Program-made: the position numbers | Shown here: positions 48,001-54,000 of the stretch, in pieces | Position numbering within the stretch: the first letter of the stretch is position 1 | Layout: the number at the start of each line of letters is the position of its first letter | NCBI RefSeq assembly: GCF_003605575.1 | Contig: NZ_QKNY01000001.1 | Coordinates: 62,001 to 126,000 of the forward strand | Direction: 5' to 3' | Source of the DNA: Halonotius aquaticus | GTDB lineage: Archaea; Halobacteriota; Halobacteria; Halobacteriales; Haloferacaceae | Length of the DNA: 64,000 bases

Positions 48001-51000
48001 TCCGATGACGCTTGTCGTCGAGGAACTGGACGAAACAATCGAGAAAGATCCCACCCGACGGGAGATCAGTATCGATCAGATGCGATCGTTTGTCAGCGAT
48101 ATCCACCACCCTCTCGACCAAGCATTGATCGTCACACTGCTCAAAACCGGCATGCGGGTGGGTGAGCTCTGCAATCTCGATCTGCGTGATCTTGCTCTCG
48201 ACGACAATGAGGTTGAAACGGCATTTGATGGTAGTCCTCGACCACAGCTTGCAACTCGACCGAACTCGCTGTACGTCGACAGCGAACCTGCGGTCGGCGA
48301 GCGGGTCAACGGCGAGGAGCGGACAGCCTCGAATAAACGCAAGCGGGCGACGATCATCCCCGTCGACGAGGAGCTACAGCGCGTGCTCAAACGCTGGCTG
48401 GCGATTCGACCGGACAGTCTCTCACCGGCCGAACCGTTGTTTGTCTACACCACCGGTGAGTGGGGACAACGACTGACGCCACGGGCTGTCCGGACCGTCG
48501 TCACCGAGCATGCCGAGGCTGCCGGCTGGTACGACACCGGCGGTGATGCCGCCGATAACGTAACGCCACACTACTTTCGGCACTTCTTCACGACACACCT
48601 CCGAGATCGCACGGGCGACCGCGGCGTGGTGAAATATCTCCGTGGTGACGTGGCTGATGACATCATCGACACCTACACCCACAACTGGGGTGGCCAGGTC
48701 AGAGCAACCTACGACGCAAATATTTACTCAATCTTGAGATGAAATAAAATAGGTCGCTCGCGGAGTGCTGTCTGAGTTCGAACTCATAAATCGTATTCGG
48801 CTATATAAAATATCTCGGTCAGTTCGGCGAACGTGGCTGTCGAAAACGGGCCACAGATATTCATGTCTCAAACCCCTCTACTGATGTGTGAATCAATCAT
48901 ATCGGTGTCTCGACTGTCTCGAAGGGGCGGTCACGCGGAGTTTCAATACCTCCCATCTCAAAACTCAGTGTTCGCGGTGCGGCTCATTTAGTCGGTTCAT
49001 CAACGAGGCAGTCCTCGAGCAGTTTCAGTCATTTGAGGAGTCACCACCAGACACGCTGCAGTGGTCACAGCTCGACCGCAAAGAAAAGCTGGTAATCAGC
49101 GAGCAAATCGTCCGACGGGGCCGGTCGATAGACGACTTTGCTGTCTCGACGTAACTATCGAAACGCGCCACGACACCCACTTACGCAACGAGTCAATTCA
49201 AGCCGATTGCGTCCCAACCGCCTACCAGATGCTTTCTGAACTGTCGACGGTATCGCCGGTGGTCAGATTCCCGATCGGACTGGCTGCGGCCGGGATTGCT
49301 GTTCTCGGCATGAACCGACTGATGGCTCACACTACAGAGGGAACGACCCCGCCGTCTGTCGCGGCAAGTGTACTCACCGGGCGCCCGGTGGATGCCGCGC
49401 CATCTCGGCTCGCGTCGGTGGTACACTACCTCGCTGGGCTTGGCACAGGCCTGCTATTTGTGTACTTCCTCTTGGTCGCAGAGCAACTCACAGGCGCCCT
49501 CTCAGCAACGACTGTCGCTGGAACAACAGTCGTCCTGTACGTCTTGATGGTCGGATTTTTCATACTCATTCCGCTGCCACGAGCAACGGGGCTGGATGAC
49601 ACCCGTCGGTCACAGACCGGGCTCGCGTGGGCGATTGCAGCCGCCGGCTACCTACTTGTGCTGGTACCAGCTACTGTCGGACTGAGTTTGGTCGTAGCAT
49701 AGTGAGTCATATCAGCCTGGGTAGTGTCTCCCCTATACATCCCTCTACGCGTTATTGTACATTGGACGCTGACGACGACTGACACCCTCACCCCGGGCAT
49801 TATACACTCACAGCATCATCACGCGATAATGGAGACATACCCGGCGGCGTACAGTCCAACAAGCTACGGCCGTCACGATGGCGAGGCGGTGATTCGCACC
49901 CCCCATGCGACCAAGACGCTACAGGGAGGCGGGCTTGAAGCGATATGTACGCTGCTGGCAACGATGGACGGTACCACACCGGCCAGCGACCTTATCGCAC
50001 AGGTTCCCGATAGCGACCCTGAGCAGATCGACCTCCTGTATGGGGCTGATATAGCCTACGACGCACAGGCGATTCCGGCCGGACTCGCAGAGGCGGGTTG
50101 GGAGCGATATCTTGAGCCAGTCTTGTCGGCGATGTCACAGCCGACCCAGCAGACGCTCCCGGATCGATTGGCAGCACGCTCGGTCGCGGTGTTCGGCGAG
50201 TACGACCCTGTTTCGGGGGTCTGTGACCGGTTGCGTGCTGCGGGGGTGTCCGTCAGCGAGCGGTCTGCTACTGATCCGCAGAGCCATCTTGACGATCCAG
50301 ACGTAATCTTCCTAAGCGAACAGATCGAACGGGGCGACTCGTGGAGGGCAGCCAACGAGGCGTGGGCCACCTCGTCGGCAACACTCATCAAAACGCGGCT
50401 CACCGCAACAGGTTGGCGGCTTGGGCCAGTGCTCACGGCAGATGCCCGCGCCTGTCTGAACTGTGTGTATACGCGCGTGGATGCAAACAAGGCTGGCGGC
50501 CAACTGTTCGATGAGACGGTCACCGGCACTCCTCCATACATGCAAGCGTACACCGACACCGTCACCGAACTTCTGTTCCGTGCTCTGGTTGCACAGCTCC
50601 CCCGCTATCTGGACGACCAATTCGTCGTATACGACCACTATCAGGGACGCAGAGAGACACCACGCGTTTTCGCCAGCCCCCAGTGTAAGATCTGCGACAA
50701 TGCGTCGTCTCGACAGGAGCGGTTCCCATGACTGATCGCGACGGAATCACTGTCACGGCTGCTGAAAGCTCCCCGACTGATGACGCCCAAAGCGACCGTG
50801 AACGGCTTCAACAGATCGAAAGCCCAACGACAGGCATCATTACTGGCGTTCGGCAGGTTCCGGTACCGCCGGGCGAGCCAGCCATCGAGAGCTACGTCGT
50901 TGAGCGAGAGGATTTCACCCCATTTACCGACGGCAACCCAATGCCTCACGACGAAGGTGGTGCTGCGTTCAGCGAGGACGCCGCCTTTGTTGCCACCTAC

Positions 51001-54000
51001 GGCGAGGCAATTGAGCGATACTGTGGCTGTGTGTACCGTGACGATTCATTCCGAACAGCGTCCTACGATGACCTCACAGTGCCCGCGCTTGATCCAACTG
51101 CGGTCGTCAACTTCTCACCTACCCAGCGGGCTGCAATGGCCGACGACACCGACCTCTGTGGCACCGATGATGACCTCTCATGGGTTGGCGGTGTCGACCT
51201 CGGGTCGAAGGCGACTACCCAGATCCCGGCGCAATTGGTCTATCTGTCGTACCCGCCGACCGCAGACCCGTTCATCCGAAATCCGATCTCGACGGGGCTT
51301 GCAGCCGGCTCCGATCGGGAGATGGCGATCCACAACGGCCTCGCGGAGTGTCTCGAACGCGACGCGTTCATGACGTACTATCTCACGGCGACCGCGTTGC
51401 CCGTGATCGATCCTGAGACGCTCCCGCCGCGAGTCTACCGATTGGTTGATCGCATTACGGCACATGGACTTGAGCTGACGCTGTTGGATGCAACAACCGA
51501 TTTCGGGGTGCCGATTGTCATCGCGGTGCTTATCGATCGGACGCGGCGACCGACCGTGACCGTCGCCGCCGCCGCTGGCTCGACGGCGACAACAGTGATC
51601 GAGAGCGCGCTATCGGAGGTGCTTCAGACACGATTGTCGACAATTCACCGGTTGTCGTCGACCACCCGCTCAGCTGAAGAGATCGACCCCAGCGAAATCG
51701 ACTCATTCGCGGATCGCGCGCTGTTGTGGGCCGCCCATGACCGTCTCGCTGAGCTGGATTTCTGGATCGAAAGCGACCGAACAACCACGTTTGATGCATT
51801 TGCCGTTGACGACCAAACCGATCTCGTCGAAGCAGTCACTACGGCTGGCTACGATGCCTACGCTGTCGATGTCACAACCCGAGATATCGACTCGATGGGT
51901 GTTACTGTGCAGCGGATTATCGTGCCGCGACTCCAGCCACTGTATCTCGTCGAGCGCCTCCGATATTTCGGCGGCGATCGGCTCACCCGCGTCCCGGTCG
52001 AAATGGGGTACCGAGACACGCCCATCACGGAAGCTGCGCTCAACACAGTGCCACACCCCTTCCCATAACGATGACTGAATTCCCCTCACCCGACAACGCG
52101 GCCTTCGAGTATCTCTACGAGCTCTACCACAAAAATCTCTCATCGTTTGTTTCGGAGTCGGCGCTTGAACCCGAGTCATCCCCGGAAGCGCCGTCGACGC
52201 CAGCGGACAAACAGTACCAGCGGGCACCACAGGTGCCACTGGCCGACCCAGACTCTGCGGCGGTACCGGGGGCCATCCGGCGGCGGGCATCCTACAGGGA
52301 ACCCGAGCGACGGCCGATCACCGACACCGAGTTGGCGACGCTGCTGACGTATGCCTACGGAGAGATCCGCGAGGTCGATGGCGAGCCGCGCCGTCCCGTC
52401 GCCTCCGGGGGAGCATGTTACCCGTTAGAGCTGTATCCGATCGTGCTTGACTCCCCCAACATCGACGCTGGCATCTATCATTACAACGGCAGAGACGGCG
52501 CGCTCGATCAACTCGCTGCGGGCGATTACAGTGACTGGCTGCAGGAACAGTGGACGTGGATCACGTCTGCTGACACGGTTGCTGCGGCCATCGTGATCAC
52601 GGCACTCCCGGGCCGATCAGCCGACCGGTACGGCGAGATGGGGTATCTCCTCGCCGCCCTCGAAGCCGGTGCCGTCATCCAAAATCTCCAACTGCTCGCC
52701 ACAGAGCTTGACATCGGCAGCCGCCCCCACAACGGGATACAGTACCGCGCGCTCAGAGAGCAGCTCCGACTCCGCAGCGAGGAGTATCTGTTGTCAAGTG
52801 TCGTGTTCGCCGGGAGGGCACCGGGTACCGGGGATTAGCTGTTCATTCAGTGTGTGAGAAGATAGTGCAACCCAATTGATTTATCTGAACATCTCAAACC
52901 CTGCTGTATGACAAAGAAACCGAAGGTTATCGACGGGATCTCTGAGTGGATCCGAAAGCAGGTCGGCCCGGAAGCCGAAAACCGCGGTGACGACAATTCG
53001 GCTGACAACGATGGAAGTAGCGACCCCGAACCCGACAGCGATGACGACGACTCATCGAGTGAGTACGACTCGCCGGCATGTTGTTCAGCCGCTGGCAACA
53101 GCGATGTCACGGTGCTTGATCCGTAACTGCTTCCTGTTGGGGTCACCTGTCGCAAAACGCCTGTTTTCACGTTCCGATGGATTTATTCGTAATTACAGTC
53201 TCTCCAATAGCAGTGAATACTAACTCAGCGTCAAATGTTAATAACTCGGAGCTGGGTCGCTCCCGGCTCGGGCTGTGGTCTCTCGGCGCGCTGCTCGTGC
53301 TCTCGGCAGCCGCGATCGGCGGGATTCGGTATGAGATCGGCGGGATCGACGACTCCGTGTTGAAAGTTGTCGTCATCGGCTGGGTTGCCTGCGGTGCGAT
53401 GGTCGGCGGCGCGTGGCTTGGCGGTCGGGCGAACGAAACTGACCCCTTCGGCCTTGTCTGGGGATACGGGCTGGCCAGCGGCGCGATGATCATGAGCGCG
53501 GCGATGTTTCTGGTGCCACAGGCTATCGGGCTCGCGGGATCGGTTGGGACGCCACAGTTCGGCGGGATTGGACTCGCATTCGGCGTGATTCTCGGCTACA
53601 GTGCCCACACGATCGGCCACCGGCTGACACATCTTGATCTCTCAATGGATATCACCGCCGCCCAGATCTCGGTGCACGCGCTGTCAGCAGGAGCGATCAT
53701 CGGGATCGTCTATGGCTCGATGCCGTCACTTGGCCTGTTGCTCGGCCTCGCTATCGTCTCACACAAAGGCCCGGCGGGGTACGCCGCGGCCCGTCGACTC
53801 CGGCGGGATGGCCGACCGGTAGCGGTGCTCCTGCTCCCAGCAGCGGGCGTCGGGCTCACGGCGATCCCGACTGCCGTATTGCCGATCCCCGAACAGCCGA
53901 TCATCAACGCGCTTGTCTTCGGCTTCGCCGCCGGGATCTTTCTCCACGTCGCCATGGATTTCCTCCCGAAATGTGAGACCGGCAGCGAGATCGATCAGGT

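What a model noticed while it worked through the whole genome (the two positions that open the first line are those of the whole stretch)
49829..53126. Genus-wide thiazole/oxazole RiPP operon with its precursor
Four co-oriented genes encode a discrete TOMM C protein (g00586), a YcaO D protein (g00587), a SagB dehydrogenase (g00588) and an unannotated 72-aa peptide (g00589) with a conserved leader, a hypervariable acidic spacer and an invariant D-x-P-A-C-C-S-A core. This is likely a complete linear azole peptide pathway whose product carries adjacent thiazoles and an oxazole, kept as a core trait of the genus. It would be a new archaeal RiPP family with an identified precursor and salt-adapted C/D/B enzymes, distinct from haloazolisin.
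Evidence so far: NCBIfam: g00587 TIGR03604 278 bits (cut 219), g00588 TIGR03605 102 (cut 78), g00586 TIGR03882 31 (under cut 37); YcaO ends in PHPFP. YcaO in 6 of 6 Halonotius and 0 of 25 other haloarchaea at E<=1e-70; order C-D-B-peptide kept in 6 of 6 loci. 16 precursor sequences: P56 A57 C58 C59 S60 A61 invariant, leader G10/G20/P21/N25/R26 invariant, spacer free. C protein in 8 of 81 family genomes: Halonotius and one other genus, 3 of 3. The genome's haloazolisin YcaO (g00453) is separate, 29% alike. Haloazolisins have a fused, truncated cyclodehydratase (PMC4603692, PMC9953058; passages, calls 131, 137).
(Added by a program. Inside this text positions count along the whole contig: contig position 62,001 is position 1 of the stretch shown here. 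"Call 12" and the like, gene names such as g00115 and contig names such as C1 are that model's own, and its searches are not shown. The text may have been shortened before it was handed on; [...] marks where a part breaks off. The agent that wrote the report below was given it as the finding of a first reader that could run no searches.)

Follow-up and report, generated by a model that had tools for sequence, protein, structure and literature searches.

The report
Exporter-less azole peptide operon of haloarchaea
Two related genera of salt-loving archaea keep a four-gene set that likely turns the Cys-Cys-Ser end of a small acidic peptide into thiazole/oxazole rings; the chemistry is a known bacterial type, but this family has no exporter or protease beside it, was not found in the papers searched, and would give a ready test of azole-peptide making in archaea.

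Summary
C (49829-50731), YcaO D (50728-52068), SagB-type B (52071-52838) and a 72-aa peptide (52908-53126) form one cassette with intact catalytic motifs. The predicted C fold is RRE plus E1-like (LynD/McbB type). C and peptide occur in the same 9 of 257 family genomes: 6/6 Halonotius and 3/6 of a second genus (Halohasta; all 3 high-quality genomes). It therefore spans two genera, not one. The peptide core is under strong purifying selection (pN/pS 0.05). A sister clade in 3/42 Haloarcula genomes has the same C-D-B with a microcin-B17-like Gly/Ser/Cys peptide upstream, which independently supports the precursor call. Corrections: A57, P21 and W14 are not invariant; an 11-residue tail is also conserved; the ZIP gene has its own TATA-like box and does not travel with the cassette; two Haloplanus plasmid clusters are another family. 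No exporter, protease or immunity gene is shared across five genomic contexts, and TldD was not found. Best reading: a linear azole peptide (LAP) pathway whose product is likely kept in the cell, possibly binding metal. Product, ring count and role are untested. It is a new archaeal family of a known class.

The parts
49791..49805 (+). Operon promoter: CCC-rich motif plus TATA-like TTATAC 29 nt before the C start (likely leaderless transcript; spacing rule recalled)
   Evidence: TTATA[CG] at -29/-30 in 13 of 14 loci located (L026 has CTATAC), CCC invariant in 12 aligned loci
49829..50731 (+). C protein, 300 aa: N-terminal RRE (three strands, three helices, residues 12-72) plus E1/ThiF-like domain with C209xxC212 and C286xxC289 (likely structural Zn site)
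   Evidence: AF2 model pLDDT 70.7; Foldseek best hits LynD 2.9e-8, MccB, PaaA, TruD, McbB; four Cys invariant in 38 sequences; TIGR03882 31.3 bits, under cut-off
50728..52068 (+). D protein, YcaO cyclodehydratase, 446 aa; E93AIER, S188-T189-GLAAG, E207CLERD, C-terminal PHPFP
   Evidence: TIGR03604 278 bits; nearest solved TruD 5e-22 and LynD 4e-21; ExxER, ExxERD and C-terminal PHPFP found in all 16 loci, the [ST][TS]GLAAG pattern in 15 of 16
52071..52838 (+). B protein, SagB/ThcOx-type FMN dehydrogenase, 255 aa; R71RAS, S112GGACYPLE, R186-Y187 at the Lys-Tyr dyad (Lys-Tyr in L025 and L106)
   Evidence: TIGR03605 101.8 bits; hits to ThcOx and McbC, RY aligned to ThcOx KY; motifs
52871..52885 (+). 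Separate promoter-like element for the peptide gene (CCCAAT then TTTATC at -28)
   Evidence: TTT[AT] box at -27 to -30 in 11 and at -35 to -37 in 4 of 15 loci
52908..52988 (+). Precursor leader, residues 1-27 (strand-like K6-D9, G10, helix 11-19, G20-P21, N25-R26)
   Evidence: alignment A2; helix 11-19 in a low-confidence model, pLDDT 58.6; pN/pS 0.27
52989..53066 (+). Acidic spacer, residues 28-53; 18-46 residues long and 37-60% Asp+Glu in homologues
   Evidence: pN/pS 0.52
53067..53090 (+). Predicted core D54-S-P-A-C58-C59-S60-A61
   Evidence: D, P, C, C, S, A invariant; pN/pS 0.05
53091..53126 (+). Conserved tail, residues 62-72, and stop; S/T65 and T/S68 are further possible ring sites, or the tail is a follower sequence
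   Evidence: V69 invariant, N64 and T68 at 90% or more; position 65 is Ile in L069
53213..54115 (+). ZIP-like membrane gene: neighbour, not part of the cassette (own TATA-like box at 53182-53187, in-frame GTG at 53213)
   Evidence: PF02535 20.6 bits, under cut-off; box conserved downstream of the peptide in 5 loci; not found in G034 and G120, unlinked in G002

Best explanation
This is a conserved four-gene cassette whose C, D and B proteins likely convert Cys58 and Cys59 (and probably Ser60) of the 72-residue peptide into adjacent thiazole/oxazole rings, giving a product that is likely kept inside the cell rather than exported as an antibiotic. Steps: (1) Shown: genes, folds, motifs, co-occurrence and selection. 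(2) Inferred from McbBCD/LynD: the RRE of C binds leader residues about 5-19 as a strand plus helix. (3) Inferred: the 18-46-residue acidic spacer is the halophile's version of the McbA polyglycine tether that lets the core swing between active sites. (4) Inferred: D uses ATP to cyclodehydrate C58, C59 and less surely S60, S/T65 and T68. (5) Inferred: B oxidises the azolines with FMN. (6) Weakly inferred: the leader is removed by an unlinked housekeeping protease or not at all. (7) Speculative: the ring triad with D54, N64 and D66 binds a divalent metal or a cellular protein. Odds: azole chemistry on this peptide about 0.85; product not a dedicated exported antibiotic about 0.6; metal binding as the specific role about 0.3.
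For: D passes TIGR03604, and B passes TIGR03605. D keeps the ATP/Mg motifs, the Thr of the STG turn and the terminal Pro; McbD Thr148 and Pro396 are catalytic (PMC6395948 passages; motifs). B keeps [KR]-Y, as in McbC Lys201-Tyr202. C folds as RRE+E1 with four Cys, as described for McbB, whose leader binds as strand then helix. C and peptide are in the same 9 of 257 family genomes, with no orphan peptide. All 13 of 29 metagenome loci that reach that far read C-D-B-peptide; 15 end earlier and 1 is broken. Only these four genes are shared across five different neighbourhoods. Sister D clade (41-45% identity, SH-aLRT 99 in a quick tree): in 3 of 42 Haloarcula genomes it comes with a peptide of the same build (short leader, acidic spacer, GGSCGG...GGCSAAA core) placed upstream, in the same 3 genomes. 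GSC and GCS are MccB17 ring sites, and linker length controls processing (PMC6722960 passages and section 41). For cell retention: no ABC, protease or immunity gene in any context, whereas other haloarchaeal B-C-D clusters carry ABC genes (L027, L028, L031; read from ORF sequence only); PF01523 TldD not found in G000 while 8 of 14 controls rang; the cassette is in all 8 good-quality genomes of the two genera.
Against: No product, transcript or protein was observed. C is below its family cut-off. McbBCD needs Gly before the ring site (G39A not processed) and stalls on G-C-S; this core has Ala/Val there, so ring count cannot be read off. Profile-profile comparison of the two precursor families gives no significant match (probability 0.6%); hand-picked motif scores are only p about 0.02-0.07 (leader) and 0.006 (core) per peptide, on three related peptides. 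Export and cleavage could be done in trans: two CAAX-type proteases lie elsewhere in the genome. Two broken copies exist (L084 truncated C; P0163 reads as an in-frame C-D deletion), so the cassette is probably dispensable. The metal role has no direct support: the ZIP/NikR neighbours do not travel with the cassette.
Confidence: 0.6

Rival explanations
1. Same azole chemistry, but the product is an exported antimicrobial (a halocin-like LAP) that uses unlinked protease, export and self-protection genes.
For: The LAPs described in the papers read (MccB17, phazolicin) are antibacterial (listing). The sister precursor has MccB17-type motifs. The peptide has its own promoter-like box, which would allow high output. 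CAAX proteases exist in trans. MccB17 itself uses a chromosomal protease.
Against: No exporter or immunity gene in five contexts or in the sister cassette. A single near-invariant core is fixed across two genera, so neighbours would share both weapon and immunity. TldD not found.
Confidence: 0.25
2. Same chemistry, but the product is a signal or regulatory ligand (pheromone or modifier of a cellular protein), possibly left uncleaved, with the conserved leader and tail as binding surfaces.
For: Leader (G10, G20, N25, R26) and tail (N64, T68, V69) are conserved well beyond the ring sites. The operon promoter has a conserved motif. Archaeal lanthipeptides are discussed as chemical language (PMC12144867 abstract and passages).
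Against: No sensor, regulator or receptor gene travels with the cassette.
Confidence: 0.15
3. The 72-aa ORF is an unmodified Cys-Cys metal-binding or scaffold peptide, and C/D/B act on another substrate (a protein or a peptide encoded elsewhere).
For: Only three to five cyclisable conserved residues; ZIP-like and NikR genes follow in the main Halonotius clade. Some YcaOs modify proteins (PMC9953058 passages).
Against: Exact co-occurrence with C. Fixed position after B in five contexts. The sister clade pairs the same enzymes with a textbook azole precursor. C has an RRE. No second leader-like ORF in the genome. ZIP is unlinked or not found elsewhere.
Confidence: 0.08
4. D is an amidine- or thioamide-forming YcaO, or the cassette belongs to a thiopeptide pathway.
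For: antiSMASH called a cluster 'thiopeptide' in the type strain of the species whose name P0104 bears (PMC8600319 passages). D also passes the generic TIGR00702 model.
Against: TfuA not found in G000 (control rang in 1 of 14). No lanthipeptide dehydratase among the neighbouring ORFs; the genome search for PF04738 was blank but no control rang. The presence of B, an RRE-E1 C protein and terminal PxP all point to azoles.
Confidence: 0.04

Closest known systems
Microcin B17 synthetase McbBCD and LAP/TOMM clusters with discrete C and D
   Same: Discrete RRE+E1 scaffold with four-Cys site, YcaO ending in Pro, FMN dehydrogenase with [KR]-Y; precursor built as leader, flexible linker, Cys/Ser core; no leader protease in the operon.
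   Different: Acidic rather than polyglycine linker; short P-[AV]-C-C-S-A core without Gly at -1, plus a conserved tail; precursor after the enzymes with its own promoter-like box; no McbEF exporter, no McbG immunity, TldD not found; archaeal, acidic enzymes.
Haloazolisin (Cox et al. 2015, PMC4603692; PMC9953058)
   Same: Haloarchaeal YcaO ending in HPxP; one is in this genome too.
   Different: Haloazolisin is a truncated C-D fusion lacking the leader-binding region, near-universal in haloarchaea, with doubtful precursors (passages). This D is discrete, 29% identical, in a separate clade, with full C, B and a linked precursor.
Thermoacidophisin (Sulfolobus TOMM family, PMC4603692)
   Same: Archaeal cluster with discrete C and D, a B protein and an identified precursor.
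   Different: Has ABC transporters and a regulator and Tyr/Gly-rich precursors; no sequence comparison was made here.
LAP clusters of CPR/Patescibacteria (Sharrar et al. 2020, PMC7298704)
   Same: The bacterial-type YcaO group next to this clade in the quick tree (SH-aLRT 98) includes P0143, whose 90% cluster holds a protein named from a Patescibacteria (Beckwithbacteria) MAG; P0143 itself is labelled Bacteroidota. YcaO + nitroreductase + adjacent precursor.
   Different: The described cluster has a peptidase and no C protein is mentioned (passage); those YcaOs are basic (pI 8.5-9.6). Only 1 of 20 rows of that group could be named.
Haloarcula sister cassette (L105-L107; P0104 named H. salinisoli, P0109 H. 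sp. S1CR25-12)
   Same: C-D-B order, D 42-45%, B 40%, C 25-27% identical; acidic-spacer precursor ending in C-S-A-A; no exporter nearby.
   Different: Precursor upstream, Gly-rich MccB17-like core, patchy (3 of 42 genomes). Possibly the antiSMASH 'thiopeptide' cluster of PMC8600319 Fig. 5A (figure not seen).

Membership tests
LAP / TOMM | Azoline-type YcaO (D) with ATP-binding motifs and C-terminal Pro-rich end | tested here: met
LAP / TOMM | E1-like C protein with RRE | tested here: met
   Predicted fold and Foldseek hits to LynD/TruD/McbB; TIGR03882 below cut-off
LAP / TOMM | FMN dehydrogenase (B) with catalytic Tyr | tested here: met
   TIGR03605 over cut-off; R186-Y187 aligned to ThcOx K-Y
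LAP / TOMM | Linked precursor with leader and Cys/Ser/Thr core | tested here: met
   co-occurrence 9 of 257, selection, sister clade
LAP / TOMM | Azol(in)e rings actually installed; linear product released | not testable with these tools
   needs mass spectrometry
Microcin B17 family | Gly-rich core with GSC/GCS sites, McbEF exporter, McbG immunity, TldD/E cleavage | tested here: not met
   core is P-A-C-C-S-A; no exporter or immunity gene; PF01523 not found
Haloazolisin | Truncated fused C-D cyclodehydratase without leader-binding region | tested here: not met
   discrete C and D; separate clade; 29% identity
Thiopeptide | Split LanB dehydratase and pyridine synthase in the cluster | tested here: inconclusive
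   none among neighbouring ORFs; genome search for PF04738 blank but no control rang
Thioamitide | TfuA partner | tested here: not met
   PF07812 not found in G000; control rang in Methanosarcina
Haloplanus LAP clusters (PMC11541754) | Same C, D and precursor family | tested here: not met
   Two Haloplanus plasmid clusters: D 31%, C about 22%, no such peptide among upstream ORFs. Whether these two are among the clusters the paper counted was not checked.

The most novel reading that the evidence does not exclude
The cassette makes a cell-retained, possibly uncleaved peptide with a thiazole-thiazole-oxazole triad that serves a housekeeping role such as metal buffering, inherited vertically by two genera after an old transfer from bacteria. 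That would be the first azole-modified peptide from an archaeon and a LAP that is physiology rather than a weapon.
Probability: 0.25. Interest if true: 0.75.

Novelty: new variant of a known kind. Interest (0 to 1): 0.5.

Why it matters
By the introduction of PMC12144867 (passage), the only archaeal RiPP clusters validated before that work were lanthipeptides, and YcaO clusters were listed as unexplored. The one tested haloarchaeal YcaO (haloazolisin) has no confirmed substrate (PMC9953058). This cassette gives a small, complete set with a convincing precursor, in named cultured species, plus a sister cassette with a different core. It makes 'do archaea make azole peptides, and what for?' directly testable, and offers acidic, probably salt-tolerant C/D/B enzymes. 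The enzymology itself looks standard, so the surprise is moderate unless the role proves non-antibiotic.

Tried and rejected
C + peptide complex prediction: no verdict (score 0.30, mark 0.32); not used either way. RNA runs: one small-share run, 5 short contigs, none over the peptide, uninformative. ESM Atlas search with the peptide: no usable hit. Peptide structure: low confidence, only helix 11-19. hhalign of the two precursor families: not significant. The sigma-70 promoter/terminator scan is not suited to archaea and gave nothing usable. Order-wide sample of 401 genomes with P0104 at E<=1e-55 found only g1 and g30 genomes and missed the Haloarcula sister, so samples under-count. The careful tree did not finish; the quick tree was used. 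Naming of outgroup YcaOs mostly failed. ZIP/NikR as functional partners: rejected as a required part. Second precursor copy in the genome: none. Earlier scan findings by place and by sequence: nothing. Literature searches without a description of this family: 'haloazolisin' (2 papers); Halonotius+YcaO (0); Halonotius+antiSMASH (2); Halohasta+antiSMASH (2 unrelated listings); broader searches (listings only). Cox 2015 supplements held as text (2 files) had none of six names or motifs. PMC6719526, PMC10105419, PMC11541754 and bioRxiv 2026.07.27.741052 had no mention in term searches. Subscription papers (for example Wang et al. 2019 on archaeal clusters) and the supplements of PMC12144867 and PMC11541754 were not seen and may list these clusters.

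
Full report
Observation. Four co-oriented ORFs lie at 49829-50731 (300 aa), 50728-52068 (446 aa), 52071-52838 (255 aa) and 52908-53126 (72 aa). C and D overlap by 4 nt, D and B are 2 nt apart, and B and the peptide are 69 nt apart. 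NCBIfam gives D TIGR03604 278.2 bits (cut 219.25), B TIGR03605 101.8 (cut 78.4) and C TIGR03882 31.3 (cut 36.9). Pfam gives YcaO and nitroreductase; the peptide has no family. Each gene is single-copy, and the only other YcaO is a 572-aa haloazolisin type at 29.3%.

Enzymes. The AF2 model of C from 38 sequences (pLDDT 70.7) has three strands and three helices at 12-72, followed by a Rossmann-like domain. Foldseek ranks LynD (2.9e-8), MccB, PaaA, TruD and McbB first. This is the RRE plus E1-like layout with a four-Cys site described for McbB (PMC6395948 passages); C209, C212, C286 and C289 are invariant. D's nearest solved relatives are TruD and LynD. It keeps ExxER, ExxERD and terminal PHPFP in all 16 loci checked and the [ST][TS]GLAAG pattern in 15 of 16; the matching Thr and terminal Pro are catalytic in McbD. 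B matches ThcOx and McbC and has Arg-Tyr, or Lys-Tyr in L025 and L106, at the catalytic dyad. All three are acidic and Lys-poor, pI 4.3-4.6 against 8.5-9.6 for the 11 outgroup YcaOs measured. GC (0.60-0.63) equals the genome's 0.61, so this is not a recent arrival.

Distribution. D is in 6 of 6 same-genus genomes and 1 of 55 other sampled genomes at E<=7e-191; all other hits are at 4.6e-36 or weaker. Across all 257 family genomes, C and the peptide occur in the same 9: g1 6/6 and g30 3/6. The three g30 genomes without it are 61-83% complete. Named records place the cassette in Halonotius and Halohasta; that these are close relatives is recalled. Of 29 metagenome loci, 13 reach the peptide and all read C-D-B-peptide, 15 end earlier, and L084 has a truncated C followed by NikR. 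P0163 reads as a C-D deletion fusion. The cassette sits in five different neighbourhoods, and only its four genes are shared by all. The ZIP-like gene follows only in the main Halonotius clade and has its own conserved TATA-like box. It lies apart from the cassette in G002 and was not found at E<=1e-20 in G034 or G120.

Precursor. In A2 (16 rows) M1, G10, W14, G20, P21, N25, R26, D54, P56, C58, C59, S60, A61 and V69 are invariant. Further loci show W14R, P21S and A57V. The spacer is 18-46 residues and 37-60% acidic. pN/pS is 0.05 for the core, 0.15 for core plus tail, 0.27 for the leader and 0.52 for the spacer. Both the operon and the peptide gene have TATA-like boxes about 29 nt before ATG, which fits leaderless haloarchaeal transcripts (recalled rule).

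Sister clade. D homologues at 41-45% (P0102-P0112) join the family at SH-aLRT 99 in a quick IQ-TREE tree of 82 rows. Haloazolisins, other haloarchaeal B-C-D clusters and actinobacterial YcaOs fall outside. The next group out (support 98, 20 rows) is basic and bacterial-like, with one row linked to a Patescibacteria name; CPR LAP clusters are in print (PMC7298704 passage). In family f2 the sister D is in 3 of 232 genomes, all in genus g50, and its peptide is in the same 3 of 42. There the order is peptide-C-D-B, and the peptide has a short leader, an acidic spacer and a Gly-rich core with GSC and GCS sites ending in C-S-A-A-A. These are MccB17 ring sites (PMC6722960 section 41). Homology of the two precursor families is only suggestive. 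Still, sister enzymes paired with a textbook precursor of the same build, on the other side of the operon, is the best independent support that the 72-aa ORF is the substrate.

Mechanism. By analogy with McbBCD (inferred), the RRE holds the leader, the acidic spacer plays the part of the polyglycine linker whose length sets processing, D cyclodehydrates C58 and C59 and perhaps S60, S/T65 and T68, and B oxidises them. The ring count is open: McbBCD needs Gly at -1 and stalls on G-C-S, and this core has Ala or Val there. Fate of the product: no protease, exporter or immunity gene is linked in any context, TldD was not found, and two unlinked CAAX proteases exist. Other haloarchaeal B-C-D clusters do carry ABC genes. 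Together with fixation in all 8 good genomes of two genera and a near-invariant core, this favours a cell-retained or non-antibiotic product (about 0.6). Metal binding by the ring triad is my leading guess (about 0.3; azole metal binding is recalled). It has no direct support once ZIP is set aside.

Comparison and novelty. The cassette works like McbBCD and meets four sequence-level LAP criteria; ring formation is untested. It is not haloazolisin, not MccB17 family and not a thioamitide. The two Haloplanus plasmid C-D-B clusters examined are a different family. Cox 2015 already lists an archaeal discrete-C/D family (thermoacidophisin) and a B/C/D-only family (mobilisin) (passages), so neither the archaeal setting nor the minimal layout is unprecedented. 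I found no description of this family in eight answered searches and the term look-ups listed under Tried and rejected. Papers seen: passages of PMC4603692 (plus 2 supplements searched), PMC9953058, PMC12144867, PMC8600319, PMC11541754, PMC6395948 and PMC7298704; passages and section 41 of PMC6722960; term searches only in PMC6719526, PMC10105419 and bioRxiv 2026.07.27.741052. An antiSMASH 'thiopeptide' call in the species named for P0104 may be the sister cassette (figure not seen). Unseen supplements may list these clusters without comment.

Verdict. Real, well supported as a LAP-type pathway with its precursor, and apparently an undescribed family spanning two genera with a sister in Haloarcula. 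The enzymes are standard; the precursor build and the lack of export genes are the unusual parts. Interest 0.5.

Noticed in passing
L105:7936-11095; L106:7848-11003; L107:7996-11136: Sister cassette peptide-C-D-B in 3 of 42 Haloarcula-group genomes with a microcin-B17-like Gly/Ser/Cys core and no exporter nearby.
   Followed up: yes
L030:6327-10175 (G044): B and D genes with two divergent tandem 47-49-aa peptides carrying Ser/Cys/Gly cores (S-C-S-G-C-S-G-G-G), another haloarchaeal azole cluster type; G044 has four YcaO matches.
   Followed up: no
L027:6221-13930; L028:3760-11715; L031:5034-12834: Haloarchaeal B-C-D clusters flanked by ABC-like genes; their D proteins form a separate clade; precursors not identified.
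   Followed up: partly
L029:9015-16235 (G014): YcaO and short C-like gene next to a 48-aa peptide with a C-C-S end, a 952-aa ORF that looks like a lanthipeptide synthetase and an MFS-like gene: possible hybrid lanthipeptide/azole cluster (by eye only).
   Followed up: no
L111:5910-8835; L112:5988-12681: Haloplanus plasmid C-D-B clusters, one followed by a methyltransferase, M28 peptidase and amidase; no evident precursor among upstream ORFs.
   Followed up: partly
L084:4818-5922; protein P0163: Broken copies of the cassette in metagenomes: frameshifted, truncated C running into NikR, and a C-D deletion fusion; could be real loss or misassembly.
   Followed up: partly
window 49791-49805: CCC(C)GG-type motif a fixed distance before TTATAC is conserved in both genera; may be a special TFB element or regulator site.
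   Followed up: no
window 53177-54115: The ZIP-like ORF probably starts at GTG 53213, 26-31 nt after a conserved TTTATT box, not at ATG 53177; it converges on NikR (54137-54565).
   Followed up: partly
L106:6529-7800; L107:6950-7900 (minus strand): Long Gln/Gly-rich repetitive ORF directly downstream of B in two of the three sister loci.
   Followed up: no
G122:C13:1176-2252: A cassette-negative, 83%-complete g30 genome has two YcaO genes of haloazolisin size.
   Followed up: no
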